From positions 864,001 through 928,000 of the forward strand of contig AL929603.2 in NCBI GenBank assembly GCA_000002445.1: a stretch of DNA of 64,000 bases, written 5' to 3'. The position numbers and the translations under genes are program-made. This document shows, one piece after another, positions 19,183 to 56,270 of the stretch. This DNA comes from Trypanosoma brucei (lineage: Eukaryota). How positions within the stretch are numbered: position 1 is the first letter of the stretch; each line of letters opens with the position of its first letter. The notes below the pieces were generated by a model, which ran no database searches, was not told the origin of the DNA, and worked only from the letters and a program-made list of their open reading frames with translations.

Positions 19183-22100
19183 CAACCTCATCATTAAGTA
19201 AGTGATAAAAGGAGAAGGGGGGGGGAGGGAGGAAGGAGGGGAAGAAAAAAAAAAAGGGAGCTGGGGGAAAGGAGAGAAAACGCCAGATCGTATGTATATA
19301 TATATACTTATATATTTGTATGACACAGGTGTGAGCATTCGGGGGTAGCAGCATATGAGGGAATTTTAGTTACGTGTTTCGATGATAAAATGGATAAATT
19401 TCCCTCTCGCCCTCTCAACGTTATATTCCCTTGAGAGTAAACATATAGAGGTGTATGCACTCCTGTTACACATCTGGTTGGCTTGAATTGAGGTAACACA
19501 ACCATTCCCTACTGGTCGCTTCTTCTTTTTTTCTTTTTTTTGTTCATTTGTTGGATCATCATCATCTTAATTGCGACTACCAGGTAGCACGCAGGCGGTT
19601 ATTGACGGCTGTATTTTGTTTTTTTGTCGCTTTTTTTGTGTCTTTATTTACTCAACCAGTTGTTTTTTTTTTCACTCAACTGTTGTTATACGTATTGGAG
19701 ATGACCATTTGTGTTTAGGCGTGCTTATATTTGCGTGCATGCCTAACACATAACCTCAAGTAACTCATTATTGCAATGCTGAGAAATATGGAAACAAAAT
19801 TTATCAAGAAAACACTTCATATCTTTTTTTTATTTAAAATCTTCCGTAGCGGGTTCGGCTGCGTTGAAACCCCTCTTTTTTCTACTTCCTTTTTGTTGAA
19901 AATACGGGATACAATAGATTCTCCCCCTTATCCACGTGGATGATGTTTTGTGATTAAAAAAAAAATGAACATACTCATCAGCATTTTCTGAGGTTCTTCT
20001 TTTGTTGCTGTACTTCACTTCTGCCTCTTTTCCACATATCTTTTCATTTCCGTACAGGAATGAGGGTGAGCACATTAATATTATATAAACGCATGCACAT
20101 GCAGAAGCTTTTCCTTCTTTCCTCTTTCTTTTTTTTTTGTACACTATCTGTGGCTTCTACGTGGCGCTTTTGCTGCTGTACAATTCTTCATACTGCTCTT
20201 TTTATTCTATTTTGTTTCTTTCTACTATATATAATATCTATATATCTATATATCTAAATTTATATTTATTTATATATATATATATGTATGTGTATGTGTG
20301 TGTATGTGTTTGCTTGTGGTGGTGAGTCGTCTGAGGTGTAATGTGTGGTGTGAAGCCGAAGGTGTGTGAGCGGACTCTTCTCTCTCTTTTTGTTCTTTTT
20401 AAAGTTCAAGGTTCATTTTTGTATGCTGTCCGTTACATTTACCTTTGGTGAAAAAATTATTTATATTTATTTATATTTACTTCGATCTATCAATTTCAAT
20501 TGTCTACTTATCTCTACGTGTGGTTAGGCGGCGTAAAGGGAAATTAAAACCTGTCATATTTTCCATTCACTTCGCTGTTTACTTAACCCATGTATTTTTA
20601 TCACTCAAGTGCGCCGCCCGTGTGTTTGTGTTCCACGCGGTATTCGCTGTTCTTTCCTTTTTTTTTTTTTTCAGAAGTGTTTGGCAATTTGTTGAATCCC
20701 TCCGTTTAAATGTTGTTGAATGAAATGTTGCTCATGTCATGTCACGTCATGTTTCACACCTCTCCTTTTTTTTTTTTACACTTCCTTTTTATATCCGTAA
20801 TAAAGAGGAGAGGAGGGAGAAAAGTTAGCATGAGGATGCGGATAAAATGACACGACTGCATCAGGAAAAAAAGAACATAAAGGGAAATAAAAAGTGATGA
20901 AGGGGCAAAAGAAGAAAAAAAAAAGGAAGAGGAAAGAGAGCAAAAGAAAGCAGGGTATTTATTTATTTATATATATATTTATATGAAAACGAAAAAAAAA
21001 ATAATAAGAATGAGAATTATCACTTTGGAGAGGGGATGGAGGAGGGGAGGAGGGGTTTTGATTAGGCGTTTTTTTTATAAATAAATTAAATAACTTCCCT
21101 GTTTCTTTGCTTTACCCACCTCTTTTTCTTCTTTTTCTTTTCTCTCTTGTGTACCTTCCAAACAAACATAGTTTGGGTGCCGTTTTCCTTTTTTTTTTCC
21201 TTTTTTGTCCACATCAGCATATTTTTGCATTGTTGTGTGGATTTGTGGAGCGGGAAGAGTGTATTCTTTTTCTGTATCTCCTTTCTTTCTCACTGCGGTT
21301 AATAATTAATTCACTTCACTTCACTCCACTTCAATTTTTGTTTTTTTTTCTCTTTCTATTTCTCTTTTTGTCTCTCTCTCTCTCTCTTTTTTTTTTTTAA
21401 AACCTCTGTTTCTTTCCATATCTTCTCCTGTGATCCGTTGGACCAATTTGTTCCGTCCATTACGTTTTTTTCCTTTTTTTTCCCCTGCATGTTTGATTGT
21501 ATTTCCGTCTTTACTGTCGTTGCAGCATACCGTGAAGTTGTGATAACACGGGGCAAATGGAAGCCTCAACCCACGCATAAACATTAATAAAAAAAAAAAA
21601 AAGAGTACAAACCACACGAATAAAATGAACAAAAAAGTTTCAATAAATAAATATATTTAAATATATATAAATATTTCCAAAAAAAAAATAACGAAAAATG
21701 ATACATTAAGGGTGGATTGTGTCACTCACGCCGGAAGTGTGTTTGTGCGTTCATAAAAAGCTATGGACTCACGCGTGTTTGTGTGTGTGGAATGCATTAC
21801 TGTAATATGTGCTCTAAGGTGTATTGATACAGCACCTATCCTATCCTATTCTATTCTATTGTATCATTATTATTATTTTTGCATGTGTGTTTTCTTTCCT
21901 TTATTTATTTATATATTATTCATATTCATTTTGCCTCTACTTTCTATTAATATTCACACACAAGGTACCAACATCACCAAACGTGAAAACTGTCTACACA
22001 TCAACCAAAAACAGATCCCGAAATACAGGATTAGAAAGAAAACAAGGGATCGCAAGGGAGATCACTGACGAAAAGTGAAAACACTGAAGGGGTGGTGGGT

Positions 22101-23774: not shown

Positions 23775-23924
23775 TTGATATGCGTTTTTGGTTTTGAAAA
23801 TTGCGTTTTTTTTTTTCGGGTGTTGGAAATTTAGAGGGCATTTCTCGCAGTGGGGGAGGCGCTGCGTACATTTATGACTTCTCTTTTTCTTTTTTTTTTT
23901 TGAAAAAAAAGAGAACACAAACAA

Positions 23925-23975
23925 AAAGGAAAAGGAAAAGGAAAAGGAAAAGGAAAAGGAAAAGGAAAAGGGAAA
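23925..23975. repeat. (GGAAAA)n hexanucleotide repeat, ~9 copies
   Basis: aaaaggaaaaggaaaaggaaaaggaaaaggaaaaggaaaaggaaaaggaaaaggg, 150 nt downstream of the DnaJ-RING stop. Confidence 0.9.
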
Positions 23976-25295
23976 GAGAGGTAGGGCAGAGGAGAAAAAG
24001 GTTGTGGTGGTGGAGGATGAGTTTAGATGCGAAAACAATAAATATTAGGATTGAGAAGTGAGATGCGAGTAGAGTTTGGATTATTGCGTCAATTAGGTGA
24101 TAAAACATGTGGGGTGAGGGACGCTGAGGTGTAACATGAAACTAAGGGAAGGGGAACTACACAAATACAAGCAATGACATGTAGGCATCTGCATTTGCGC
24201 ATGAATGTAAAAATAAATATGTTCAAACGTGAATGCATGAGGGGGGGGGAGGATGTGTTGTGGGGAGTTGAAAGGATGGGATTACTGATAATTTTATTAC
24301 TCGATGAGCATTACAAAAAAAAAAAAGAGAAAAAAGGGGATTTCTTGTATCTTTTTTTTTTCTCCTCATTTCCACACCAAAAGGTAGTCAAAAACGTTGG
24401 GACGGGATTATGTGCCGGTGGGCTCCAATGCGGTGCATCATTTTTTTTTCTTTTTTTTCTTTTTAGTTACTTTTATTATTATTATTATAATTATATGGCC
24501 ACAGCCACGGCTATGGTCATCATCATCATCATCACTACCATTGTGATCCTTGTCGTTTCCCGGATTCCTTTTAAGTGTTTGAACCTTTTCACTCCCCTGT
24601 GATGCACTTCTGTTGTTTGAGTGTGCAGAGGGGGCATGATTAAATAGTTAAAGAATTTTTTTTTATTCTAAAAAAAAAAGTAGATCAAAGAAACAAACAA
24701 ACAAACAAACAGAGAAGCGCAAAAGGGATTCACCTGTAAGCACCACTGCGGTTCTCCGGGATTTCACATTCAGGAATCGAAACTTCACGTCTTTTTCCCT
24801 TTTCCCCTCTTCTCTTCTCTGTACCACCCAATTAAGGCAAACACATATGGTGTGTATATTTGCCCATGGTTACATTGGGGGTTGAATGGATGTGGTGTGA
24901 GGGAAATGTTATGAATGAGTAAAGATAAAAGTGTCAGTGCGTGCGTGTGTGTGTGTGTGGCGAGACCATATTTTCGGAATCACGGTTGGTGGTTTTTGAT
25001 TTTCTTTTTTTGATTTTTCTTTTTCTTTTTTTGTTTTTGTTTCTTTCCCTCCTTTTCTCACTCTTTCTTTTTCCCCTGTTTTCGTTATTTGTCGTTCATT
25101 GCTATTTATCATCACCGTTATTATTGCTATTATTTTTCTTATTTATTTATTTTCAAATGATAGCCTTAAATTGTTTTGGTGCCCCTTTTGTTTGTTCCCG
25201 CTAATCCCTCAGCCCTTTTCCCAAACCATTTATCCCCCTGTGAAATTTCTCACGAAATGACATTAGACACTTAAAATGTACGTGTGGAAGTTGTC

Positions 25296-25340
25296 TGTCA
25301 TTTGTCATTTGTCATTTGTCATTTGTCATTTGTTGTTTGT
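25296..25340. repeat. tandem 9-mer (TGTCATTTG)5
   Basis: ctgtcatttgtcatttgtcatttgtcatttgtcatttgttgtttgt in the intergenic region. Confidence 0.9.
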
Positions 25341-26220
25341 ATATTTTCACATTGATATGAGAGCAAAAAACACCAACAAAAAAAACAAAAAAGAAGGACG
25401 ATGATGAAATTAAGTGAATACGTCACTTTAATGGAGGGATGAGTCATGAAAGTTTCCCTTTTCCTGTTACTCATTTTTTTTTTTTTCAGTTTTCACCTTC
25501 TCCCCGAAAGTTTTATTCCCGCTTGCGACTGTCGCCTTCCTTTTCTTCTTTTCTTCTTTCTTTTCCTGTTGTTATTGTTGTTACGGCATCCAATCCATGT
25601 ACTAATACTACAACTCGCCGTTTTCTCGATTCTTTTTTCTTTTTTTTTTTTACTGTTTCGTTCTGCTCTTTTTTTTAAAATTATTTGAAATGTGCTAATC
25701 CTTTTTTTTCTTTTCTTTATTTGTTTGTGAGTTTCTCCCCCCCTGTATTTTAGCCCCTCCTCACATATATATATATATATTGTTTTACATGCGGTCACAA
25801 TCAGCTTCACTTTTACTTCCCTTTCTCTTTTATATTCCTGTAGTTGCACGTTCAATAATATTATGATTATTGAAATGATTGTTGCTACTATTGTTCTTTC
25901 CGTGCTGTTAAAGGCTACGAGGGTTATGGACAATTTATTTTTTTTAGTCATTACTGATGTTTAAACAATTTCACTACATAAAATAATAATAATAATATAA
26001 TATTATTATGTTTGTCATTTATTATTTCTCATCATTACGTTTCTCCCTCTTTCTCTCTCTCTTTCTCGTGTTTCTTTCCTTTCATAAAAGGTAGAATATT
26101 CATTGCTGAATCCAAACCGTCCGTCAGTGTAAAGTATTTGGACATAAACATAAAAAAAAAAAGACACACGCGCACACGTACACACGCAGCTGTGTACAGT
26201 AAAAGCCGAATCAAACGTGC

Positions 26221-26280: not shown

Positions 26281-26926
26281 CGATCGGAATAACAACAACA
26301 ACACCAACAAAAAAGAAAACAAAAGGAGGGGAGGATTTCTTGAGCAGAGTTGTGTGACTGCTCAGTGAGATTTTTGAGGTGAACAGCCATCAAAGTTTCA
26401 GATACGGGTGTGATAAACTCATACGGAAGGAAAGCCTGAAAGAGAAAGAAAAGGAAGGGAATTGACGTTGGTATTTGTGTTTGAACAAAGGATAAGGGTG
26501 ATTTAGAAGAGGGAAAGAAGGGAAAAAAAAAAAAAAGAAACTAAAAGAAAAAAAACAAAGAAAAGGAAAAAAGAGAATTGGATTATAGGGAAGTAGGCGG
26601 AAAGAAAGAAGAGGATAGTGAGATTAGAAGGAAAGAGGGAAGACAAAAGCAGGAGGCCGTAAAAGAATAGAACTGGTGCCTTCCTGTGCAGGTGGGTGCG
26701 TGTTTCCACACTCTTGGGAGCAAGGGGACATACATACATATTGATAAGGAGGGAGAGAGAAGGTAAAAGGAAGGAAGAAGAAGGAAAACCACAACAAAAA
26801 AAAGGAAGGAACCGAACACAGCGGCCGTGGGGTTTGTCAACGACTGTCACTTTCACTTGAGTGAAGGGACGTTATAACAACAACAACAATAACAAAGGGA
26901 ACACAGGGCAAAAATCCAAGTTGAAA

Positions 26927-29900
26927 ATGGAGAACGACTATCCCGTTAACCTGCGAGTGGATATCGCTCCTGAAGATGGCACGGTTATGCTTCCCGGAAG
27001 CATAACCATCACCCGCACCACCGTTTCCGTGTTCAAGTTGCGTGAATCCACGGATGAGGAGCCGCTGTTTATTGGCGTGTGCTCCGTCCCATTAATTAAG
27101 TTCTCCCGCTGCCCCAGTACAGTCTTTCCGAGAACCGATGCCCTTTTGCTGACGAGCGTCTCGGGGCATCTTTTTATTAACGCCGCCCTCACAGCTGGAG
27201 TGGTGCCACCAGAGGAAAGTGGGCTCGGGACCCCGAGCTCTAGTGCCAGTGACATCGCACGCAGTCATGCATCAGGAACCCGGCGAGACTCTGTTGATGA
27301 GCGCCGTAAGAAAATTGACAACCCCGGCCTTTGGACACGACTACGGCTGGAGTTTCGCGACAACGACGACTGCGACCGCTGCGTTGAGGCCCTCCTCGCG
27401 CGCCACGCAGAGGAGCTTAATTCACGCGGTACATCATCCACAAGTTCCCTCTCTAAGTCTCACTCCCAAAACGATGTTACGGGTGCGTCACGTAGTCGCA
27501 GGGATTCTTCCATGCGCACACACAGTGGCCCACGGCGCAGTACACACAGCGAGTCGACCAGGTCAACGGAGAGTTCGATGAGGAGCACACAGGAGGACTT
27601 AGTCCGAAGTTCGCGCGGTGGAGAGAGCCGCAACAGTCGCGGTGACGCAAGCAGATCTGGTGGAACTCCATTAAGAAGTGCGCCAGATGACTCCCGACGT
27701 TCCCGTGGCCCAGAGAGCCATTCCGTCCGCAGCGACACAACAAGAACGGGTGGGACTCCGTCGAGGGGTGGGCCAGATGATGTCCGACACTCTCGAGGCC
27801 CTGATAGCCATTCCAGTCGCAGTGACACAACAAGAACAGGTGCAACTCCATTAAGAAGTGCGCCAGATGACTCCCGACGTTCCCGTGGCCCAGAGAGTCA
27901 CGTCACCCGCAGCGAGACTAGCAGATCAGCAGGGACTCCCTTAAGGAGCGCGCATAACGAAACGGCCCGCAATAGCCGCAGTGAGGCAAGCAGATCTGGT
28001 GGAACTCCATTAAGAAGTGCGCCAGATGACTCTCGACGCTCCCGCGGCCCGGAGAGCCATTCCGTCCGCAGCGACACGACAAGAACGGGTGGGACTCCGT
28101 CGAGGGGTGGGCCAGATGATGTTCGGCACTCTCGAGGCCCTGATAGCCATTCCAGTCACAGTGAGCTGAGCAGGTCTGGTGGAACGCCCCCACGAAGTGC
28201 GCCAGATGCTATGTTCCGACATTCCCGTGGCCCCGATAGTCAAACTACCCGCAGTGAAGCGAGCAGGTCGGTCAGGAGCTCCTCAAAGCACTCACCCGCT
28301 GGTGCAGGCAGATCAACGGGAACGACTAGGTCAAGTGGAACAGCCCTTCCCGCCGGAGCTGGTGTCAGCGAAATGATGCACACGTGCCGCAGCGGACCGA
28401 CGTACATGGAGGGCTCATGCACGAGTTCTAATGCCCGCCGAAACGGTGGGATCCATCACGGGTCGGACCGGACACCCATCCGTGCTGGTCGAGGTCCCGC
28501 GGACGGCGATTCCGAATCAGATGCAGCCTCATCTGCTGTGGACATCCGACGGCATGGCCGGAGCAGCGTAACCAGTAGCGCCAGCAGGGGCAGTGGTTTG
28601 GACAGCCAACCCTTAACTCCTAGCGGGAGCGAAGTGGGGGGGCAGAAGCGCCGTTCAGGTTCCCCAGCAGACTTCCACACTCCCAACAGCAAGCGGCGGG
28701 ATTCTCAGTCGGAGTACTCACAGGACAGTCAGTTAACCCCCCGTGGCCTCCCGAATCGCAGCCGGGGAGACGGCAGTTATAGAGAGGCGGATTCCGTAAG
28801 CGAGCTACGGACACCACGGAGCTCGTTAAGGGAAGGGAGCCGCGACGGCTATGGAACAAGGGCTCCAGGCACCGCAAGGGATGCACCAAACGCAGCCCAG
28901 TCCCCATACAACATCCGCCGACATTCACTCAACAGCACTGGAACAAGCACGATGCAAACATCAGTGATCGACTCCATCGTGGGGGGCGGCCATGATAGGG
29001 GGCGTGCCCACAGCCAAGCAACGTCCGCAAGAACGACACCGTACAACTCTCGCAGCCCACCCGGCCACCCATCCACGGGCAAAAAGCGCACGGAGCTGCA
29101 GTATTTCCTGCGATGCATTCTCAAATTTATGCACCACCGTCTCCATTTCATGCAATACTTACACAAGGAGGTCGTCTTCGAGGCTTACCTCCACGAGGAG
29201 GCGCGGCTGCTCGGCGGACGCCCCCGATCGCGTTCGATGCGACGTTCCTCCCGTGCCACCTCCGCCAGTCACAACGCCAGCCGCATGAGTGCCTCACCGC
29301 GCCGCTCATTGATCCCTCCTGGTCTGGAGGAGGCTCATCGGCTCCGTGAGATCGAGGACCGCCTTCGCGAGGTGGAGAATTTGCACCGCACGACCGAACT
29401 GGAGCGAGCTGAGTTGGAGAGGCGGCAGCGTGAATTTGAGGAGGAGCGGCGAGATTTCGAGAGGCGCCGTCAGGAACTGGCCCACCAGCGCCTAGAGGTA
29501 CAGGATTTGTTGCGAGAAGTTGGGGATAGGTGGAGGGATGGTGACCGCATGGGTGGTATGGGCAGTGGCATCAACAGGTTTGACTACCTGAGTGATCAGA
29601 GACCTCGTGACAGCTACGGTTATGGTGAGGGCATCGGATCTCGCCATTCTTCACATCACAGTAGGCAGCGTGATAGTGACACCCTTTCAGTACCTACAGG
29701 AGAGGCTAAGTTGCTTTTGTCCTCGCAGAAGCCTCCGGCATTAGAGGAGGCGTTGGATGAGGCCGATTACCCCACTGCTTTTGTGGATCGTTACGTTTAC
29801 GGTGATGAGTGGAGAATGCTGCTCCCCAAGCGCGAGATGGAGGTTCGTTTCAATGCCCTCGTCGACACATGCATCGCTCTTAAGCTGCCACGCCGCCTTG

Positions 29901-31843
29901 TGACAATTTTAACCGTGTCCGTGGAACAACCGGGACTGCGGGTTACAGCAGAGGTTCGCCACAACCCAGAAACCCTGTCGCGCGATGTGTTGACGCGTCG
30001 CTTCACCACGCAGCCTCTCCGCTTTCTCCAGCGGCTTTATGATCTCCGCCACTACTACGCCATGGACGATACGGTTGCAAACGCACCGCAGCGGAGCCTG
30101 CCACGTGGGTCGCGGGGAACATCACGAGGCACGCCGCTTCAAGGTAGCCGCGTGCTCCCAGGTGTGATACCGCGGGTGAATGAAAACAGCGGTATTTATG
30201 ATGAGTCCAGCGACGACGATCTGATGGGTGACAACGCGATGGTGGACCCGATGGCTCGCATGCGTGAGTTTCAGCGAGGTGCTGAACGCCGCCGCCTCCA
30301 GCGTGAACTCGAGTCAGCGAATATGCGTGAAAAAAAGCAAGCCACACAGCAGAAGCAGCGTAGATTTCAGCAATTAGAGCAGCTGGAGCAGGAGGAATCG
30401 ATGGGCCGCAGCAGCATTGTGCTTGCCGAGCTACAAACCCGCCGCTCAATGTTTGCATCTGCTGTTTTCAGGCAGCGTCCCAGCGCCATTACACTAAGAC
30501 GACAGCTGGAGGAAAAGGAACAAGTGGAGCGTTCTTTGCTTGAGGTGGGGTACGTCCGGCAGACGCAGGTGCTCATGCAGGCTCATCGCCGTAATCTCAA
30601 TTTTGTTCGCCTCCTCATGCACGAGGCTGAGCGTCGCTTGCGTCATGTGGAGCTTGAGCGTGAGGCTCGCATGGAGTTGGATATCATGATGAATCCCACA
30701 CGGTGGGTAAAGTCCGTGTCGCTGCCGGAGGTGAATGAGCGCACGCGGCGGCAGAGGCTTGTTGCTGCAGAGATGAAGCAGCGGATGCACATATACGCGA
30801 ACATCCGGAGTTTTGTGGCCGATGCCGTGCAGAGTGAAATTGACACACTGATCAGCGACGAGATGGCCGCACGTTTGGTGCTCGGTGCGGATGAGATGAA
30901 GTCGCGTATAGATCTTTACAGCTGGAGCCAGGCACCCGGCAGCATTTACACACCTCGCTCAGCCGCAATAGCGGCTGCAGGGCGTCAGGGGATTCCACCG
31001 CAAGCATTACATGCTCTTTTTGCGGAAGAATCCGTTGAGCGTGTTCACTTGGGTAACGATGAGTTGCGCCGCCGCCATCTTTACCAGCGGGAGTACATCA
31101 TTACAACAGAGGACGCAGCCCGCAATGACATTGAGCTAGAGGAACTGGATGAGCACGTTACCATGTTGGATGGGCTCGTGCAGAAGAACCGTAAAATGTT
31201 GGAGCGCCGCCGCCAGGAGCAGCAGCGATCAATTAAACTCCTCAGCGAGGAACAGTACTACCGTAAGAGTATCATAAATGACGAGCAGGACGAGTTTGAA
31301 GAGTTTATGGAGCAATTTGATGCAGAGATTAATGATATGATTATGACGGAGGCTTCACAGTTAGGCCCAGCACATGACATTGATAGTCCTTCCCGTCGCC
31401 GCCGCGTCCCCAGCACTCCACGACAGGCAAAATTGTTCCACTACATGTCTTTTGTGCCTGAAGACATGGATCATGTTCCCACTGCCAACTTGGCCATTGA
31501 AGGGATGCTTGGTTGCAGCATTAATAAGAACTTGGAAGTAACATGTATTGCCCGGCCACTTCCAAAGGCAGAAGCGGAGGAACTTCAATTCCAAGCAGGT
31601 GATATGATACTTGACGTGGCTGGATATTCCCTCCACTCGCTCTCTCATCTACGTGAAGTACTTGCGAATCGCGCGATGCAAATTCAGCATGAAGCGCGTG
31701 AAGAATTTGATGATGTACCGGAAGATGAGCTTCTCACAAATCCTGCACTGCAGAAGTACATTGAAGTGCTTTGTGAGCACCATAACTTCCTCGTGCAGGT
31801 GCTGCGTGGTTGTGATATCTTCCAAATCATTGTGAAGTCCTAA
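26927..31843 (+). CDS. very large repeat-containing coiled-coil protein with C-terminal PDZ-like domain
   Basis: ORF 26861..31843. The N-terminal 22 codons are poly-Asn low complexity, so the Met at 26927 (MENDYPVNL) is preferred. It contains an in-frame tandem array of ~30-aa units (…SRGPESHSVRSDTTRTGGTPSRGGPDDVRHSRGPDSHSSRSDTTRTGATPLRSAPDDSRRS…) at about 27600-28270. Downstream are long Arg/Glu-rich coiled-coil stretches. The C-terminal block LQFQAGDMILDVAGYSLHSLSHLREVLANRAMQ is PDZ-like. Confidence 0.85.
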   Translation: MENDYPVNLRVDIAPEDGTVMLPGSITITRTTVSVFKLRESTDEEPLFIGVCSVPLIKFSRCPSTVFPRTDALLLTSVSGHLFINAALTAGVVPPEESGLGTPSSSASDIARSHASGTRRDSVDERRKKIDNPGLWTRLRLEFRDNDDCDRCVEALLARHAEELNSRGTSSTSSLSKSHSQNDVTGASRSRRDSSMRTHSGPRRSTHSESTRSTESSMRSTQEDLVRSSRGGESRNSRGDASRSGGTPLRSAPDDSRRSRGPESHSVRSDTTRTGGTPSRGGPDDVRHSRGPDSHSSRSDTTRTGATPLRSAPDDSRRSRGPESHVTRSETSRSAGTPLRSAHNETARNSRSEASRSGGTPLRSAPDDSRRSRGPESHSVRSDTTRTGGTPSRGGPDDVRHSRGPDSHSSHSELSRSGGTPPRSAPDAMFRHSRGPDSQTTRSEASRSVRSSSKHSPAGAGRSTGTTRSSGTALPAGAGVSEMMHTCRSGPTYMEGSCTSSNARRNGGIHHGSDRTPIRAGRGPADGDSESDAASSAVDIRRHGRSSVTSSASRGSGLDSQPLTPSGSEVGGQKRRSGSPADFHTPNSKRRDSQSEYSQDSQLTPRGLPNRSRGDGSYREADSVSELRTPRSSLREGSRDGYGTRAPGTARDAPNAAQSPYNIRRHSLNSTGTSTMQTSVIDSIVGGGHDRGRAHSQATSARTTPYNSRSPPGHPSTGKKRTELQYFLRCILKFMHHRLHFMQYLHKEVVFEAYLHEEARLLGGRPRSRSMRRSSRATSASHNASRMSASPRRSLIPPGLEEAHRLREIEDRLREVENLHRTTELERAELERRQREFEEERRDFERRRQELAHQRLEVQDLLREVGDRWRDGDRMGGMGSGINRFDYLSDQRPRDSYGYGEGIGSRHSSHHSRQRDSDTLSVPTGEAKLLLSSQKPPALEEALDEADYPTAFVDRYVYGDEWRMLLPKREMEVRFNALVDTCIALKLPRRLVTILTVSVEQPGLRVTAEVRHNPETLSRDVLTRRFTTQPLRFLQRLYDLRHYYAMDDTVANAPQRSLPRGSRGTSRGTPLQGSRVLPGVIPRVNENSGIYDESSDDDLMGDNAMVDPMARMREFQRGAERRRLQRELESANMREKKQATQQKQRRFQQLEQLEQEESMGRSSIVLAELQTRRSMFASAVFRQRPSAITLRRQLEEKEQVERSLLEVGYVRQTQVLMQAHRRNLNFVRLLMHEAERRLRHVELEREARMELDIMMNPTRWVKSVSLPEVNERTRRQRLVAAEMKQRMHIYANIRSFVADAVQSEIDTLISDEMAARLVLGADEMKSRIDLYSWSQAPGSIYTPRSAAIAAAGRQGIPPQALHALFAEESVERVHLGNDELRRRHLYQREYIITTEDAARNDIELEELDEHVTMLDGLVQKNRKMLERRRQEQQRSIKLLSEEQYYRKSIINDEQDEFEEFMEQFDAEINDMIMTEASQLGPAHDIDSPSRRRRVPSTPRQAKLFHYMSFVPEDMDHVPTANLAIEGMLGCSINKNLEVTCIARPLPKAEAEELQFQAGDMILDVAGYSLHSLSHLREVLANRAMQIQHEAREEFDDVPEDELLTNPALQKYIEVLCEHHNFLVQVLRGCDIFQIIVKS
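27600..28270 (+). repeat. in-frame tandem repeat array (~90-nt subunits forming ~180-nt higher-order units, roughly 7 subunits) within the large CDS
   Basis: Near-identical nucleotide blocks recur. The string ggaactccattaagaagtgcgccagatgactcccgacgttcccgtggcccagagag occurs at about 27661, 27841 and 28001. The string ggtgggactccgtcgaggggtgggccagatgatgt occurs at about 27751 and 28091. The translation repeats RSDTTRTGGTP(S/L)R(G/S)(G/A)PDD(V/S)R(H/R)SRGP(D/E)SHS. Confidence 0.85.
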
Positions 31844-32408
31844 ACGATGGAAAGTGCAATTAATCGGTTGAGTGACTGGAACTGTGTGTAAAGTAGAAGA
31901 AAAGTAATTGAGGAGGAGACGACAAATAAAAGGAGAATTAGATATGGCTTTTTCTTATGTTTTAGATGGAGCCAAAGAGCTTGGCACAAGGAAAAAGGTA
32001 TGAGCCAATGTATATATATATATATTAAACGTATTGATAACTCCGTTCTATGAGATGAAAGGGGTAAAAAAAAAAGAAAAAGAAAAGAAGAGAGGGAAAA
32101 AAGAGTGACAGCGTGGCAGTGAATTATACATGCCATTCCGCACACATTTTCATTTTTTGTCACCCCAATGGGGTCTCTCTGTTGTTGCCTCCTTGTTGGA
32201 AATGGCCGGCAGGCATTTTAAAGGCGACGGGGTTCATATATGAGTGTTGTTGTTGTTGTTTTTCTTGCTTTTCGCTTTAAAATGAAAATGAATAAAAAGT
32301 GAGAGTGAAAGAGAAGGGAACGAAAAGAAGAAAAAAAAAGTAGATCAAACAGACAAACGGACTAAAACGAAAAAGGAAAAGAAAATAAATGAGAGGAAGC
32401 GCGGCACT

Positions 32409-32425
32409 TCCATTTCCATTTCCAT

Positions 32426-32461
<36 letters not shown>
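32409..32461. repeat. (CCATTT)3 plus (AT)16 microsatellite
   Basis: ccatttccatttccatttgaatatatatatatatatatatatatatatatatatat. Confidence 0.95.
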
Positions 32462-32464
<3 letters not shown>

Positions 32465-35400
32465 CCTCTTCACATTTGCGAAGCATGAAACAAATAAACA
32501 AAGAGAAGAAGAAAAAAAAGATATGGGGTGAGTTGAGATCATAATAATTTACTACAATTACTGTTATGATGGTTATTTTTATTACTGTTGTCAAGTCAAC
32601 ACAAGGAGAGGATTAGAGGCGTGAAAAGGAGAGAAAACAAATTTTGAAATATAAAGCACTTTTTTTTTTGTTGCTGTTGTTGATGTTGATGAATTTTGAT
32701 GATGTTCCCTCCTTTTTTTAAAAAAATTTAACTACCTATTTATCTATTTATCTATTTATTTAGTTATCTTTCTTTCCTTCTTTGTTTTATTTTTATTTTG
32801 TGTCCTACCGTTTTGATTTGACTCTTTCCGTTGCTATATTTCCATTTATTAGACGTAATGAAGTGTTTTGAAAGATACAAGAAAGACAAGAAAAGAAAAG
32901 AGAAGGAAAAGAAAAAAGAAAACAACAACAACAACATTATTAAAAGAAGAAAAGAAAAGAAGAAGCAAATAAAACAAATAAAAGGGGAAATGAGGGAGTG
33001 TTCTCTCTATCCCTGCGTGGGACTGCAGGAGGTTCCAGCAGTTATGCACATGTAGTTCATATGTTATGTATTAATGTCGTGAGGGGAAAATGATGACACG
33101 TATTTATTTATTTGTGTGTGTTTTATTATTATTATTATTTAAAATAAATAAATAAACATAAAACAAAAACAAAAATATAAAAATGTTTATTTATGCCTGT
33201 GAGAAGAGACATGGAAAAGGAAAAGGGGAATACGGGAGAGGGAGAGTATGGGAAGAGGAATATATAGGGAAAAATAGAGCAAAAAGGAATGGAGGGTTCC
33301 GTTTGGTTTTCGATGGTAATATTCATAATAAATAATAAATAATAATAATGAGAAAAATAATGAGGTGAAATATGCGGGATTGTGTTTATATGGCGCGCAC
33401 ACATTTTTTCTTTTTTTTGTTTTTGCATCATCATTGCTTTGGCTACTTGTTTTCTTTTCTTTTCTTTTTTTTTGCATTATTTGTTTACTGGGAAGAATTT
33501 TTTTGTTTTGTGTGTTTGTGTGTGTGTGGGTTTTTTTTTTGCCACTGGATCAAATAAAATAGCGGCAACAATAATAAAAAGAAAAAAAAGAGAAAGACTA
33601 AGGGAAATTATAATTGTTGTGTTAAATGTTAAACAAAAGTGAGTAATGTAAACAAAAAGAAATTATATATATTTCTAATGGGAGCAGGAGAAAAAAAAAG
33701 GAAGAGAGGAGAAAATAAAAATAAAATAAAAATAAAATACAAGGAGGTTTGGAGGATTACGATATTTGGAGTTTATGAACATAAGGGGGTAAATAGTCAC
33801 CGTGAGATGAGAGTGAGGGTAAACGTGAAGATAAATAAATAAATTAATCGTATATGTAATAATGAAAAAAAAAAGGTGAATACTTGGAGAAAAGTATAAC
33901 AAAAAATAAACAAAAAGAAAAGAAAAGAGGAAAATGCAGGAGGAGAAAAAAGAGGGATGAAGTCCCATGCGACAGTGTCCCACCGTTTTCTAAGATTTTT
34001 TTTCGTTCCATTTACAATTTTGCCACTGAACACGTCACAGTTTCCTTTTTCCTTTTTTCCTTTTCCTCCTCTCCTCCGTCATTGCCCTTAAATTAAAGAA
34101 TATGCGAATGATATGGTAACGTTGGGGAAGAGAAATGTCTGGGGAAATTTACATATGTTTTATATACCTGTTGGTTCGCACTTTATATATATATATATTT
34201 ATTTATTTTCCAGTTGTGTTTGTTGAAACCCGTGAGTCTGAGAGAAAATAGAAGGAAGTGAAGTGCAGCGGGTTCGCGCTTCTTTTTTTTTTTTATAGAG
34301 TTTTTTTTTTACATTTTTACTCATCTCCGGTATGGTGGCGCACAGCAGTAATTCCTAATATTATTATTATTAATTATTAATTATTGTTTATTATTATTAT
34401 TATCATTTCCCTTTCCTTCCCTCTTTTCAGCTCCGAAGTTCCGTATGTGTCAAACTTCCACAAAAATGTCGAATGTAGAGGCTCCTGCCAGCGAAATGAA
34501 CAAAAAAGAAAGAAAAAAGGAAGAAAAGGAAAGAGAGCAGGGTAAAGTTTTAAAAAAAGAAAAAAATACTAAAAAGGAAAGTTTCTCCCTGTCTTTTTTT
34601 AAAAAAAATTTATTTACACTTTTATTTCATGAATTTTGGTTCTTTCTTTGTTTGTTTGTTTCTTTCTTCTCATTTCTTCTCTCATTTCCTCGTAATTCGG
34701 TGCCACTGTACGTTTATATCATGGCAACAGTGCCACAACCGTATGTCACCATCGCTACCACTGTTATTATATTATATATTTATATTTATATAGTAATAAT
34801 ACTAAAAATAATTACTTTCATTACGACTAGTACCTACGATTACTACCATTGCTAGAGGAGTGGTTGTAGTGAAATAGTTGGAAATATTATGTGATGTTGC
34901 TAACAATTATTGCGGTGCATACGAACATATACACATATGCTTATATATGCGTATGTGCGTGTGTCAGTGCCATGTCGTCTTTTATTTATTTTCATTTTTA
35001 TTCCTCTTTCACCTGGTTCTCCCAACTTGTTGTTCGCGTATGTATTTTTCTCGTTTTCTTTTTTTCCTCTTCTTCTTTTCTTTTCCTTTTGTGAATGTTG
35101 AGTTGAGTTGAGTTTAGTTTAGTTTCTGTTTTACTTTTTGTTTTTTTTTCCTTTTTTATTTAGTTGCTGGCTCCCTGTCTTTGAATCTCTGCGGGGAGCC
35201 TCTGTTGTGGTATATTCTCGTTTCTTTTTTTTTTTTTGTGTTTGTGTGACTTTGCGGCAGTCCATCAACGAAACTTATAAAAGTGAAAAGGAAACAAAAA
35301 CAAAAGGAAAGGAACGTTGAAAAAAAAACCCCTAAGAGATATTAACTATCAACATTTACGAAGAAAGGATAGGGGGAATAGATATAACGGGAAGCCGCAT

Positions 35401-35637
35401 TGATACAAAAATATACACATACACACAAGGGAATAAATATATACTCATAAATATAGAAGGTAAGAGAGGGAAAGAAAAATAAAAAAAGAAAAAAAGAAAA
35501 GGAAAAGGAATAAGGGAATAAGGGAATAAGAGAACAGAAACCAGAGACACATACACACACGAAGAAGGACAAGTAGTCCATTGTCGAGCTGTTTTCTTTT
35601 TTTTGTCTGTTTACCGTAACGAAGTGAGCATTTTTCA

Positions 35638-37788
35638 ATGAGTAGTACTGAAAGCAGCGGTGGAGGGTCGAGTAACGCTTCCCCAAGGTCAGATGGTGAA
35701 GGCTCCACTTCCATTACTAGAGTCAGCAGCAGCAGCAGCAGCGATAGCAGTAAAAGCAGCAGCAAAAGTAGTACCAGCAGCAGCGGTAGCAGTAAAAGCA
35801 GCAGCGAAGATGAGAGAAAGAAAAACCCTGGAAAGAAAAAAGGAGTGTCTGTGCAGTCAAGTGACACGACGAGTTATAATATGCAGTCGTCTTCGTTCAA
35901 AGTTAGCGGATCTACTGAAAGAAAAGACAGCCGTAGCACAACAACGAAGTCCCAACTTGGGTCAGAAAGTAAAGCACAAACTAGTTTAGATTCAGAACTA
36001 GCGACAACAGAAGATAAATCGGGGTGCCGTGAGGAGTGGGCGGAGTTGCGCAACATGGTGTCGGATATCCGCTCGCGAATGAAGCAGTGCCACCTGCCAC
36101 CATTAGATGTGACAGTAATTGAAAAGTTTATACTCCGAGTAGTGGAGGAGAGCGAAGGGGGTAACAGCTCACCCGCAGTCGTCTCCGCTCCTCAGCGCCT
36201 CAGGAATTGCGGGAGGGTTCGCCCACTGCGATATTCTTTGCCTGGAGGGCCATATGTTAGAAACATACCGAGTCGCATTACTGTGACGAAGTCACTTGGG
36301 CGTGTGGTGCAGTTCAGAGCGCGGTCACGTCACGCCGATCATTATAATTCCGTGTACAATCAGTTGCAGGCCGCTGCTGATGTATGTGTGCCGGGACGCT
36401 TAAGCGCAACGGAAGGTGGCGATGGTGGTGGTAGTGCCGTTGGTGCGCATGGAAGTAAAATGCCAGGAGGATCTTCTCACGCTCCGTTGGTTTTCGTTGG
36501 GTACGATAACGGTAACGGTGATAAAGGCGGTGACATTGATATGGACCAGGATATAGACGTGCCAATGTTGTTTACTCCAGGTGTAATGGAGGTTATATGC
36601 CTAGACAACATTTTGCGCAGGCATGAGCAATCCATTCTCATCACGCTGGCTGCCATTAACAAACGGGAATCTGTTATGGAGAGACTTCGTGCCTTCTTGG
36701 TTATTGCTGCTAAAGATTTATCTATACCTTCAGCGGGTGGATATGACGTGGGGACGGATGGTTGTTCCAATAGTGCAGACGGCAATCCTGCATCTGCTAC
36801 TGCATCGTCTCTGGTTCTCCAGCGCTGTGGTGCACCGGTACCCCTTAGGCGTTACATGGATGTTAACGATGCGAGCTGGACTTCATTCCGTGCCAAAGCC
36901 AACAAGAAGAAGTGGGGTGTTCAAAGTTTGAAACAGCGGTGGGGCTCCGATGCACGACTGCGCGGCGGATATCCGGCCGTGTGGCAGCGCTATTATAAGT
37001 TGGGTGTGTTGTGCCTCTTATATCAGCTCCAGCAGGCATCGTTGGAGGTGGTGGAGGGCATTCGTGCATGGCGTGGGACTCTTACCGCCCCGTTTCCATT
37101 TGTTACCAAAGGGCACAATTATTTGCTTGCCATGGCGCAAAGTATGGCTGAACTCGCCAATGACCCCGTCATGCATTTCCTCTTCCCGCCACCTACCCCG
37201 AGGAAGAAGAGGCCTGGGGAACCAAAACCAAAGCCTGGCATCAGTTTCAAATTTAGTGATCCCGACCCGGCGAGTTTTGTATTGCCCATGTGCCTACAAT
37301 ATTACCCACTGCTTTCCAATATGCCGCATTTACCAGTGTACAAACAACCTCCTAATGCTTTGGTTGGGATTAACACTCCATTCGACTTTGGAGGTGCTGA
37401 CACCAAAGGAAATGAGGAGGGTCTGAGAGGAACAATTCCCATGCCATCTTCTTATGTTGGGGCATTGGTGGTGCATCAAGGCCGTATACGCCCTAACAGT
37501 AGCAGTGGCGGCAGCGGTTCCTCTCAGACCCTTTTAGATTTATCGTATGGCCGTCGGTTATTAAAGGCTGAACAGGTTGTACATAGTGAACTGCGTGTAC
37601 AGTTGCGGTTGATAGAATGGGAATTGACGTTGTGTGCGAAGGGGTGTTATCCCCTTCTGCTACGCGATGTGGGCCAAACGGAAGTAGTATATTTACGATC
37701 AACAAAGCGGCAAGAAGAATGGTACTTTCACCTGCGTGACAAACTCATTTGTCTTGAGGAGGGAAGTAGTGCCGTAGTGAGAGGTTAG
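35638..37788 (+). CDS. hypothetical protein, poly-Ser N-terminal region
   Basis: 716-aa ORF. The N-terminus is (AGC)n-encoded SSSSSSDSSKSSSKSSTSSSGSSKSSS. The remainder is an ordinary-complexity globular region (e.g. NILRRHEQSILITLAAINKRESVMERLRAFLVIAAKDL). No family recognised. Confidence 0.75.
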   Translation: MSSTESSGGGSSNASPRSDGEGSTSITRVSSSSSSDSSKSSSKSSTSSSGSSKSSSEDERKKNPGKKKGVSVQSSDTTSYNMQSSSFKVSGSTERKDSRSTTTKSQLGSESKAQTSLDSELATTEDKSGCREEWAELRNMVSDIRSRMKQCHLPPLDVTVIEKFILRVVEESEGGNSSPAVVSAPQRLRNCGRVRPLRYSLPGGPYVRNIPSRITVTKSLGRVVQFRARSRHADHYNSVYNQLQAAADVCVPGRLSATEGGDGGGSAVGAHGSKMPGGSSHAPLVFVGYDNGNGDKGGDIDMDQDIDVPMLFTPGVMEVICLDNILRRHEQSILITLAAINKRESVMERLRAFLVIAAKDLSIPSAGGYDVGTDGCSNSADGNPASATASSLVLQRCGAPVPLRRYMDVNDASWTSFRAKANKKKWGVQSLKQRWGSDARLRGGYPAVWQRYYKLGVLCLLYQLQQASLEVVEGIRAWRGTLTAPFPFVTKGHNYLLAMAQSMAELANDPVMHFLFPPPTPRKKRPGEPKPKPGISFKFSDPDPASFVLPMCLQYYPLLSNMPHLPVYKQPPNALVGINTPFDFGGADTKGNEEGLRGTIPMPSSYVGALVVHQGRIRPNSSSGGSGSSQTLLDLSYGRRLLKAEQVVHSELRVQLRLIEWELTLCAKGCYPLLLRDVGQTEVVYLRSTKRQEEWYFHLRDKLICLEEGSSAVVRG

Positions 37789-56196: not shown

Positions 56197-56270
<74 letters not shown>
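56130..56270. repeat. compound microsatellite (TA)11 ... (TG)35
   Basis: tatatatatatatatatatatata at 56130-56152 and an uninterrupted (tg)n from 56201 to 56270, in the intergenic region downstream of the K+ channel gene. Confidence 0.95.

What the first reader, a model, noticed from the sequence alone, without database searches (positions are those of the whole stretch)
27600..28270. In-frame higher-order tandem repeat array (90-nt and 180-nt units) inside a 1660-aa coiled-coil/PDZ protein
Nucleotide blocks of ~55-60 nt recur almost perfectly at a 180-nt period (around 27661, 27841 and 28001). A second block recurs at about 27751 and 28091. Together they give about seven ~30-aa Ser/Arg/Thr/Pro/Asp-rich units: RSDTTRTGGTPSRGGPDDVRHSRGPDSHSS alternating with RS(D/E)TTRTG(A/G)TPLRSAPDDSRRSRGPESH(S/V). 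High nucleotide identity between units implies recent concerted evolution and likely copy-number variation between strains. Such arrays in trypanosomatids are often immunodominant B-cell epitopes or phospho-regulated linkers. The minus strand of the same array carries mirror-image spurious ORFs (27460-27851 and 27918-28243), an artefact of the repeat.
Basis: seen in the sequence. Interest (0 to 1): 0.5.

Follow-up and report, generated by a model that had tools for sequence, protein, structure and literature searches.

The report
Phosphorylated repeat array inside trypanosome FAZ2
The repeats are real: seven imperfect ~30-amino-acid units in the disordered, heavily phosphorylated linker of the known Trypanosoma brucei flagellum-attachment protein FAZ2, which is an ordinary feature already flagged in the literature.

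Summary
The window is T. brucei TREU927 chromosome 1. The ORF is FAZ2 (Tb927.1.4310), 1638 aa from the ATG at 26927, not 1660.

The repeat is confirmed and far above chance. It is not a regular 90/180-nt array. It has seven in-frame units (27638-28249) in the order A-B-A-c-A-B-a', and the strongest self-match is at a 339-nt offset.

- **Origin:** a segmental duplication plus patchy gene conversion. The peptide is under purifying selection (pN/pS 0.10).
- **Setting:** the array lies in a 570-aa Ser/Arg-rich, predicted-disordered region between a PH-like N-terminal domain and the conserved C-terminal part.
- **Phosphorylation:** published phosphoproteomes report 26 phosphoserines in the array, plus pT337 in one of its seven T-P-x-R motifs. 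The "phospho-linker" reading is therefore supported. Regulation is not shown.
- **Copy-number variation:** evidence is weak. The T. b. gambiense "deletion" is a 94-N assembly gap. Only one short-read assembly (T. equiperdum OVI) lacks one unit.
- **Antigenicity:** no evidence found.
- **Minus-strand ORFs:** spurious.
- **Prior knowledge:** a 2016 review already lists FAZ2 as having repeats.
- **Orthologues:** a congolense-like orthologue has a homologous array. T. vivax has none. T. cruzi and T. theileri amplify a different linker segment.

Low interest; already known.

The parts
26927..31843 (+). FAZ2 (Tb927.1.4310) coding sequence, 1638 aa plus stop
   Evidence: 100% identical over its full length to XP_001219124/CAJ16637 of T. 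brucei TREU927. The literature equates Tb927.1.4310 with FAZ2. The ATG is at 26927 and TAA at 31841.
27638..28249 (+). The repeat array, aa 238-441, seven units U1-U7 in the order A-B-A-c-A-B-a'
27638..27727 (+). U1 (type A) RGDASRSGGTPLRSAPDDSRRSRGPESHSV
   Evidence: 84/90 nt identical to U5. Bases 27664-27717 are identical to U3.
27728..27817 (+). U2 (type B) RSDTTRTGGTPSRGGPDDVRHSRGPDSHSS
   Evidence: 87/90 nt and 30/30 aa identical to U6; all three differences are synonymous.
27818..27907 (+). U3 (type A mosaic: B-like 5' end, core identical to U1) RSDTTRTGATPLRSAPDDSRRSRGPESHVT
   Evidence: The U3-specific phosphopeptide SRGPESHVTR was observed, as was pS324.
27908..27976 (+). U4, short 23-aa unit RSETSRSAGTPLRSAHNETARNS. 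It breaks the 90/180-nt register.
   Evidence: pS334, pS341 and pT337 are reported.
27977..28066 (+). U5 (type A) RSEASRSGGTPLRSAPDDSRRSRGPESHSV
28067..28156 (+). U6 (type B) RSDTTRTGGTPSRGGPDDVRHSRGPDSHSS
   Evidence: Three Logan short-read contigs all begin at 28127, inside this unit.
28157..28249 (+). U7, degenerate 31-aa A/B hybrid HSELSRSGGTPPRSAPDAMFRHSRGPDSQTT
   Evidence: pS412, pS417, pS424 and pS433.
27538..27637 (+). Decayed repeat-like flank upstream of U1 (about 61-69% identity to the units)
   Evidence: D1 copy at 27538, D2 copy at 27604.
28250..28270 (+). Remnant start of a further unit (RSEASRS, identical to the start of U5)
27422..29131 (+). Ser/Arg-rich, predicted-disordered region (aa 166-735) that contains the array
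   Evidence: 31% S+T and 17% hydrophobic residues; on the charge-hydropathy plot it falls on the disordered side. It holds 58 of the 78 reported phosphoserines.
26927..27421 (+). N-terminal PH-like domain (aa 1-165)
   Evidence: AF2 model with pLDDT 72.5 and pTM 0.68. The Foldseek PDB top hits are PH domains (GRP1 1fhx, E 5.5e-4).
29798..30046 (+). FAZ1_cons domain (aa 958-1040)
   Evidence: Pfam PF23398, 31.9 bits against a cut-off of 27.5.
31538..31675 (+). Possible PDZ-like segment (aa 1538-1583) in the highly conserved C-terminus
   Evidence: Pfam PDZ and PDZ_6 at E about 0.05, below their cut-offs. Harmonin PDZ at E 0.15. The AF2 model was too poor to test it.
27460..27851 (-). Two overlapping antisense ORFs in different frames (27460-27828, 122 aa; 27477-27851, 124 aa); non-coding
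   Evidence: Their translations repeat with the array. All large ORFs are on the + strand.
27898..28243 (-). Three further antisense ORFs (27898-28077, 27918-28193, 28010-28243); non-coding
   Evidence: The minus frames have only 3-5 stops across the array.

Best explanation
The feature is an imperfect, mosaic, in-frame tandem array of seven ~30-aa units. [quoted passage not shown]

**How it arose (inferred from the sequence).** A block of about four units (A-B-x-c, 339 nt) was duplicated by unequal crossing-over. Short gene-conversion tracts later re-homogenised parts of units; the U1 and U3 cores share 54 identical bases.

**What it does (partly shown, partly inferred).** It is translated. 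It is one of the most densely phosphorylated stretches of the protein: 26 of its 43 serines, plus T337. Each unit carries one T-P-x-R motif (the proline-directed/CDK-type consensus) and four to seven serines that are found phosphorylated. I infer that it acts as a flexible, multi-site phosphorylated spacer between the N-terminal PH-like domain and the C-terminal FAZ1_cons, coiled-coil and PDZ-like part. The charge added by phosphorylation would tune FAZ2's interactions or assembly. Whether phosphorylation regulates anything, and which kinase acts, is not shown.
For: - **Identity of the gene:**
- **Repeat architecture and chance control:**
- **Purifying selection on the peptide:** between U1U2 and U5U6 there are 7 synonymous and 2 non-synonymous differences (pS 0.147, pN 0.015, ratio 0.10, binomial p 0.002).
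- **Conversion signatures:** a 54-nt exact run shared by U1 and U3. In T. equiperdum OVI, U1 carries the U5-type synonymous variants.
- **Disorder:** composition and charge-hydropathy.
- **Phosphorylation:** 78 pS positions are listed for FAZ2 in PMC11408851 supplementary dataset 3. All 78 fall on Ser in this translation, and 26 are in the array, which is the densest region at 12.7 per 100 aa. pT337 lies in the TPLR motif of U4. pS264 is in PMC6907760. The phosphopeptide SRGPESHVTR is in PMC12222847. PMC7218301 describes FAZ2 as "heavily phosphorylated".
- **Motif:** 7 of the protein's 8 T-P-x-[RK] motifs are in the array, one per unit. Composition shuffles average 0.36 and never exceed 4.
- **Conservation:** an unnamed orthologue (P0003) has a homologous array at the same place, with one TPS[RK] per unit.
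Against: - No experiment links the array to any function.
- T. vivax FAZ2 has no array at this position. Stercorarian trypanosomes expand a different linker segment. So this particular array is dispensable for FAZ2 function in other species.
- No array site appears in the held (truncated) part of the table that carries phospho-cluster labels in PMC6907760.
- A FAZ2 peptide was not a CK1.2 substrate in vitro. Which peptide was used is not stated in the text I read.
- Phosphothreonine at the other six TPxR motifs was not seen in the held, truncated tables.
- For peptides shared by U1/U5 and by U2/U6, sites cannot be assigned to one unit.
Confidence: 0.75

Rival explanations
1. Neutral low-complexity expansion. 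The array is a by-product of unequal crossing-over in a disordered spacer. Only the approximate length and composition of the spacer matter, and phosphorylation is incidental.
For: - Different lineages expand different segments of the same linker, with unit lengths of 23, 27, 30-41 and 66-67 aa.
- T. vivax lacks this array, and the most distant orthologues (P0024-P0030) show no clear repeats.
- Unit lengths inside the array are irregular: 23, 30 and 31 aa.
Against: - pN/pS is 0.10 between the duplicated A-B pairs, although they differ at 14.7% of synonymous sites.
- One T-P-x-[RK] plus (A/G)PDD per unit is kept in most units of both T. brucei and the P0003 orthologue.
- Phosphosite density here is the highest in the protein.
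Confidence: 0.2
2. Immunodominant B-cell repeat antigen. This is by analogy with the FAZ repeat antigens GM6/ClpGM6 and T. cruzi H49.
For: Other repetitive FAZ proteins are established serodiagnostic antigens (PMC3808341 and PMC3214072, listed). The array is hydrophilic and disordered.
Against: - There are only seven degenerate units. TRF recognises 2.9 copies at 73% matches.
- None of the six papers in the searched library that mention Tb927.1.4310 is an antigen study.
- The unit peptides occur in no other paper.
- The protein is intracellular, and the epitopes would be heavily phosphorylated in vivo.
Confidence: 0.05
3. Assembly artefact. The unit order or number in the reference is mis-assembled, and the apparent higher-order structure is not real.
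For: The array breaks other assemblies. DAL972 has a 94-N gap inside it. OVI lacks one unit. Three Logan contigs stop at the same repeated 31-mer.
Against: - An independent assembly (T. b. equiperdum, RHW74291) encodes the same 1638-aa length and an identical array.
- Unit-specific phosphosites are seen by mass spectrometry: U3 GPESHVTR, U4 S334/T337/S341, the U6-U7 junction S402-S412, and U7.
Confidence: 0.03

Closest known systems
FAZ2 (Tb927.1.4310), flagellum attachment zone filament protein of T. brucei
   Same: It is this gene: 100% identity to the TREU927 protein. The literature records FAZ localisation, an essential role in FAZ assembly, coiled coils, "Repeats: Yes" (PMC4827413 Table 1) and heavy phosphorylation.
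   Different: The held literature does not describe the following:
- the unit structure (A-B-A-c-A-B-a', 339-nt higher-order offset);
- one TPxR motif per unit;
- the pN/pS value;
- the lineage-specific position of the arrays;
- the N-terminal PH-like fold. The review lists "No domains".
Repetitive FAZ antigens: ClpGM6/GM6 (T. brucei, T. vivax) and H49 (T. cruzi), with 68-aa repeats
   Same: They are FAZ proteins with in-frame tandem amino-acid repeats (PMC3808341, PMC3214072).
   Different: From my own knowledge, those are long arrays of many nearly identical 68-aa units and are proven serological antigens. Here there are seven degenerate 23-31-aa units, no sequence similarity to those repeats, and no serological evidence.
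Multi-site phosphorylated disordered linkers (RS-domain-like regions; clusters of CDK-consensus S/T-P-x-K/R sites)
   Same: Ser/Arg-rich composition with 17 RS dipeptides in 204 aa, predicted disorder, dense phosphorylation and seven T-P-x-R motifs.
   Different: There is no RRM or splicing context, so it is not an SR protein. The kinase is unknown. Only one TPxR threonine (T337) is documented as phosphorylated in the data I could read. This is a functional analogy only.
Repeat arrays in FAZ2 orthologues of other trypanosomes
   Same: The unnamed orthologue P0003 (UniParc UPI00021AB1E2, probably T. congolense by inference) has a homologous array at the same place, built on SRSRGTPSRGAPDD (BLASTP E 9e-7).
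   Different: Its units are 34 or 41 aa, and they have been homogenised separately in each species. T. vivax has none at this position. T. cruzi, T. theileri and T. melophagium instead amplify the segment RGLPxRSNPTxSRREL...TPRS with a 66-67-aa period. That segment is single-copy in T. brucei (aa 604-636).

Membership tests
FAZ2 orthologue group (Tb927.1.4310) | Sequence identity to the named T. brucei protein and full-length similarity to proteins named FAZ2 in other trypanosomes | tested here: met
   100% identity and 100% coverage to XP_001219124. 46-47% identity to T. cruzi "Flagellum attachment zone protein 2". The gene ID is linked to FAZ2.
FAZ2 orthologue group (Tb927.1.4310) | Localisation to the FAZ filament and requirement for FAZ assembly | not testable with these tools
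   Taken from the literature only (PMC4406125, PMC4827413).
Pfam FAZ1_cons (PF23398) | Score above the Pfam gathering threshold | tested here: met
   31.9 bits against a cut-off of 27.5, aa 958-1040.
PDZ domain (PF00595 / PF17820) | Score above the Pfam gathering threshold | tested here: not met
   14.3 and 13.9 bits against cut-offs of 23.2 and 27 (E about 0.05).
PDZ domain (PF00595 / PF17820) | PDZ fold (six strands and two helices, with a GLGF-type loop) | tested here: inconclusive
   The AF2 model of the C-terminal 151 aa had pLDDT 44.7. The best PDB sequence hits are PDZ domains but are not significant (harmonin E 0.15).
PH-like domain superfold | Seven-stranded beta-sandwich capped by a C-terminal helix, with structural matches to solved PH domains | tested here: met
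   AF2 pLDDT 72.5, strands E7-77 plus E138-142, helix 146-158. The Foldseek top hits are predominantly PH domains, best E 5.5e-4, TM (target-normalised) 0.6-0.7. No Pfam PH hit.
Trypanosomatid tandem-repeat B-cell antigens (GM6/H49 type) | Array of many nearly identical units | tested here: not met
   Seven units. Identity between A-type and B-type units is 61-65 of 90 nt, and TRF reports 2.9 copies at 73% matches.
Trypanosomatid tandem-repeat B-cell antigens (GM6/H49 type) | Recognition by infection sera | not testable with these tools
   No report was found in the searched library.
Copy-number-polymorphic coding minisatellite | Different unit numbers in independent, gap-free assemblies or amplicons of different strains | tested here: inconclusive
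   TREU927 and T. b. equiperdum RHW74291 have the same array. T. equiperdum OVI lacks exactly 90 nt, in register. The DAL972 difference is an N-gap. No further strains were available.
Multi-site CDK-type phospho-cluster | Repeated S/T-P-x-K/R motifs | tested here: met
   Seven TPx[R] motifs, one per unit. Shuffles average 0.36, with a maximum of 4.
Multi-site CDK-type phospho-cluster | Phosphorylation of those threonines by a CDK/CRK, varying with the cell cycle | tested here: inconclusive
   Only pT337 was found. The tables held are truncated. No kinase data.

The most novel reading that the evidence does not exclude
The array is a tunable multi-site phospho-switch. Its seven T-P-x-R sites (one per unit) and the surrounding serines would be phosphorylated by a cdc2-related or other proline-directed kinase. 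[quoted passage not shown] Unit number, which differs between species and perhaps between strains, would set the threshold and so contribute to species differences in FAZ and cell morphology.
Probability: 0.1. Interest if true: 0.45.

Novelty: already known. Interest (0 to 1): 0.15.

Why it matters
It matters little beyond annotation. FAZ2 is an essential morphogenetic protein. Knowing that its most densely phosphorylated stretch is a repeat array with one TPxR per unit gives a clean target for mutagenesis, by unit deletion or T/S-to-A substitution.

Three practical points follow:
- Short-read and some reference assemblies break or collapse here, so the database protein lengths of 1581 aa (DAL972) and 1608 aa (OVI) should not be read as biology without checking.
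- Phosphosites on peptides shared by U1/U5 and by U2/U6 cannot be assigned to a single unit.
- The N-terminal PH-like fold is a small addition for a protein listed as having no domains.

Tried and rejected
1. **Homology search with the array peptide alone.** It returned nothing, not even the parent protein, presumably because of composition filtering. The test against known repeat antigens is therefore uninformative rather than negative.
2. **AF2 model of the C-terminal 151 aa to test the PDZ claim.** pLDDT was 44.7, so it is unusable.
3. **T. b. gambiense DAL972 as evidence of copy-number variation.** Rejected: the 57-aa "deletion" is a 94-N gap at L001 1843-1936.
4. **Logan contigs (L003-L005) as extra strains.** They all start at window position 28127, inside U6, so they say nothing about copy number.
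5. **Zhou et al. 2015 (PMC4524107) and Urbaniak et al. 2013 (PMC3646404).** Not held. The supplements of PMC7218301 are not held either.
6. **Search for phosphothreonine rows.** It is limited by truncated, tab-separated tables. Only T337 was recovered.
7. **A regular 180-nt higher-order repeat.** Rejected in favour of a 339-nt segmental duplication.
8. **Naming P0003.** It is only an unnamed UniParc entry. "T. congolense" is my inference.
Full report
**Where the window comes from**

The ORF covering the finding (26861-31843 under the bacterial code) has its first ATG at 26927. From there it encodes 1638 aa. That protein is 100% identical over its full length to XP_001219124/CAJ16637 of Trypanosoma brucei brucei TREU927, carried on a 1,064,672-bp contig. 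No ATG lies between the GTG and 26927, so "1660 aa" is an artefact of the ORF caller.

Orthologues in T. cruzi are named flagellum attachment zone protein 2. The literature equates Tb927.1.4310 with FAZ2, a FAZ-filament protein whose depletion detaches the flagellum (PMC4406125, PMC4827413). All 17 ORFs of 250 aa or more in the window are on the + strand, as expected for one polycistronic unit.

**Checking the observation**

The repeat is real.
- TRF reports a 90-nt period at 27659-27915 (2.9 copies, 73% matches, score 325). This is the strongest tandem repeat in the window.
- The repeat finder gives seven copies spaced 90, 90, 90, 159, 90 and 93 nt, and a 242-nt pair at 89% identity.
- An offset scan ranks 339 nt first (59/60), then 180 (58/60), 159 (54/60) and 90 (48/60).
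- 200 triplet shuffles of the same region never exceed 36/60.

In protein register the units are as follows.

| Unit | aa | Window nt | Type and length |
|---|---|---|---|
| U1 | 238-267 | 27638-27727 | A, 30 aa |
| U2 | 268-297 | 27728-27817 | B, 30 aa |
| U3 | 298-327 | 27818-27907 | A, 30 aa |
| U4 | 328-350 | 27908-27976 | short, 23 aa |
| U5 | 351-380 | 27977-28066 | A, 30 aa |
| U6 | 381-410 | 28067-28156 | B, 30 aa |
| U7 | 411-441 | 28157-28249 | A/B hybrid, 31 aa |

The "180-nt period" holds only for U1 to U3. The third A block is 159 nt further on because U4 is short. The real higher-order offset is 339 nt. Decayed unit-like sequence flanks the array on both sides.

**How the array arose**

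U2 and U6 are 87/90 nt identical, with three synonymous and no non-synonymous differences. U1 and U5 are 84/90 identical. Identity at the 339-nt offset is high from about 27626 to 27830 and then decays. That pattern fits duplication of a multi-unit block.

U3 is a mosaic. Its 5' end resembles the B units, but its core (27844-27897) is an exact 54-nt copy of U1. That is a conversion tract.

In the T. equiperdum OVI assembly, U1 carries exactly the four synonymous variants that distinguish U5 from U1 in TREU927. One unit (90 nt, from mid-U5 to mid-U6) is also missing, in register. Both fit conversion and unequal exchange, but they could also come from short-read assembly.

Across the U1U2/U5U6 pair, pS is 0.147 and pN is 0.015 (ratio 0.10, p = 0.002). 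So the main duplication is not very recent, and the peptide sequence has been conserved since it happened.

**Copy-number variation**

The 90% cluster holds proteins of 1638, 1638, 1608 and 1581 aa, and all the length differences fall within the array.
- The 1581-aa T. b. gambiense DAL972 protein is a gene model joined across a 94-N gap inside the array. It is an artefact.
- T. b. equiperdum RHW74291 has an array identical to that of TREU927.
- Three Logan contigs all begin at 28127, in U6, at sequence shared with U2.

Only the OVI deletion remains as a candidate polymorphism. The prediction is plausible but not established.

**What the array is in the protein**

- aa 1-165 model as a PH-like beta-sandwich with a C-terminal helix (pLDDT 72.5). 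The Foldseek top hits are PH domains, best E 5.5e-4.
- aa 166-735 are Ser/Arg-rich (31% S+T, 16% K+R, 17% hydrophobic) and fall on the disordered side of the charge-hydropathy plot. The array is the middle of this region.
- Downstream lie FAZ1_cons (Pfam, above threshold), regions the literature calls coiled coil, and a C-terminal 135 aa that is 81-89% identical across Trypanosoma.
- PDZ is only hinted at: Pfam E about 0.05, harmonin PDZ E 0.15. My model of that part was too poor to test it.

**Phosphorylation**

- PMC7218301 calls FAZ2 "heavily phosphorylated".
- Supplementary dataset 3 of PMC11408851 (bloodstream-form Lister 427) lists 78 phosphoserine positions for Tb927.1.4310. All 78 are Ser in my translation. 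Of these, 26 lie in the array, out of its 43 serines. That is 12.7 per 100 aa, the highest density in the protein.
- The sites recur at the same positions in the units: S-R-S before GTP, R-S-APDD, R-S-RGP and GP(E/D)-S-H.
- Unit-specific sites show that these particular units are expressed: S324 in U3; S334, T337 and S341 in U4; S402-S412 across the U6-U7 junction; S417, S424 and S433 in U7.
- PMC6907760 lists pS264.
- PMC12222847 lists the U3-specific phosphopeptide SRGPESHVTR, which rose 55-fold on expression of a BBP59 mutant.
- Seven of the protein's eight T-P-x-[RK] motifs are in the array, one per unit (shuffle mean 0.36). pT337, the TPLR threonine of U4, is reported.

Tryptic peptides from the array are 2-13 aa long and are duplicated between units. 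Coverage is therefore incomplete, and sites on U1/U5 and U2/U6 are ambiguous.

**Comparison with orthologues**

- An unnamed orthologue (P0003, UniParc UPI00021AB1E2, probably T. congolense by inference) has a homologous array at the same place, upstream of the conserved M(H/Y)TCRS motif. Its units are 34 or 41 aa, built on SRSRGTPSRGAPDD, each with one TPS[RK].
- T. vivax has about 50 aa and no array there.
- T. cruzi, T. theileri and T. melophagium instead amplify a segment downstream of that motif (RGLPxRSNPTxSRREL...TPRS, 66-67-aa period). This segment is single-copy in T. brucei at aa 604-636.
- Some more distant representatives have two-copy repeats of 23-27 aa built on LPSRRE; others have none.

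The FAZ2 linker is therefore repeat-prone, and this array is specific to one lineage.

**Interpretation**

The best reading is a multi-site phosphorylated, disordered spacer that arose by unequal exchange and is maintained under selection on its peptide. A purely neutral expansion is the main rival. It is weakened by the pN/pS value and the conserved motif.

The antigen idea has no support. No antigen paper cites the gene or its peptides, and the array is short and degenerate compared with the GM6 and H49 arrays. A search with the array peptide against the protein database was uninformative.

The minus-strand ORFs (five, in different frames) are by-products. The minus frames happen to have only 3-5 stops across the array, the polycistronic unit runs on the + strand, and the + frame is confirmed by peptides.

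**Novelty**

The gene, its function, the presence of repeats (Table 1 of PMC4827413: "Coiled Coils Yes, Repeats Yes") and its heavy phosphorylation are all published. What I add is descriptive detail: unit map, 339-nt structure, one TPxR per unit, pN/pS, the assembly artefact in DAL972, lineage-specific arrays and the PH-like N-terminus. The finding is real but ordinary.

Noticed in passing
window 26927-27421 (FAZ2 aa 1-165): The N-terminus models as a PH-like domain, with a roughly 30-aa disordered loop at aa 90-121. The 2016 FAZ review lists FAZ2 as having no known domains.
   Followed up: partly
window 31436-31840 (FAZ2 aa 1504-1638): The C-terminal 135 aa are the most conserved part of the protein, 81-89% identical across Trypanosoma. 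They give consistent but sub-threshold PDZ hits. My AF2 model was too poor (pLDDT 44.7) to decide.
   Followed up: partly
L001 1843-1936 (T. b. gambiense DAL972, FN554964.1): The deposited 1581-aa FAZ2 protein (CBH09122) is a gene model joined across a 94-N assembly gap inside the array. Its shorter length is an artefact.
   Followed up: yes
L002 about 1730-1790 and about 2120 (T. equiperdum OVI, CZPT02000763.1): U1 carries the four synonymous variants that mark U5 in TREU927, and exactly one 90-nt unit is missing between mid-U5 and mid-U6. This is either gene conversion plus unequal exchange or a short-read assembly effect.
   Followed up: partly
window 28736-28834 (FAZ2 aa 604-636): The segment TPRGLPNRSRGDGSYREADSVSELRTPRSSLRE is single-copy here. 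Its counterpart is tandemly amplified in T. cruzi (2 copies), T. melophagium and T. theileri (6 or more copies, 67-aa period). So different lineages expand different parts of the same linker.
   Followed up: partly
window 14293-14364, 23924-23976, 35734-35807, 56200-56270: There are other small tandem repeats. An 18/36-nt GAT/AAT-rich repeat lies inside ORF 12435-14804. (AAAAGG)x8.8 falls outside the ORFs of 250 aa or more. A 21-nt AGC-rich repeat lies inside ORF 35638-37788. (GT)x35 lies just downstream of ORF 52526-56056.
   Followed up: no
window 20001-22000, 24001-26000, 32001-36000: G+C drops to 31-35% between the large + strand ORFs, against 45-60% elsewhere. This fits AT-rich intergenic or UTR regions of a trypanosome polycistron.
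   Followed up: no
window 26861-26926: The in-frame stretch upstream of the ATG (…YNNNNNNKGNTGQKSKLK) is what inflated the ORF to 1660 aa. It contains no ATG and is presumably 5' UTR.
   Followed up: yes
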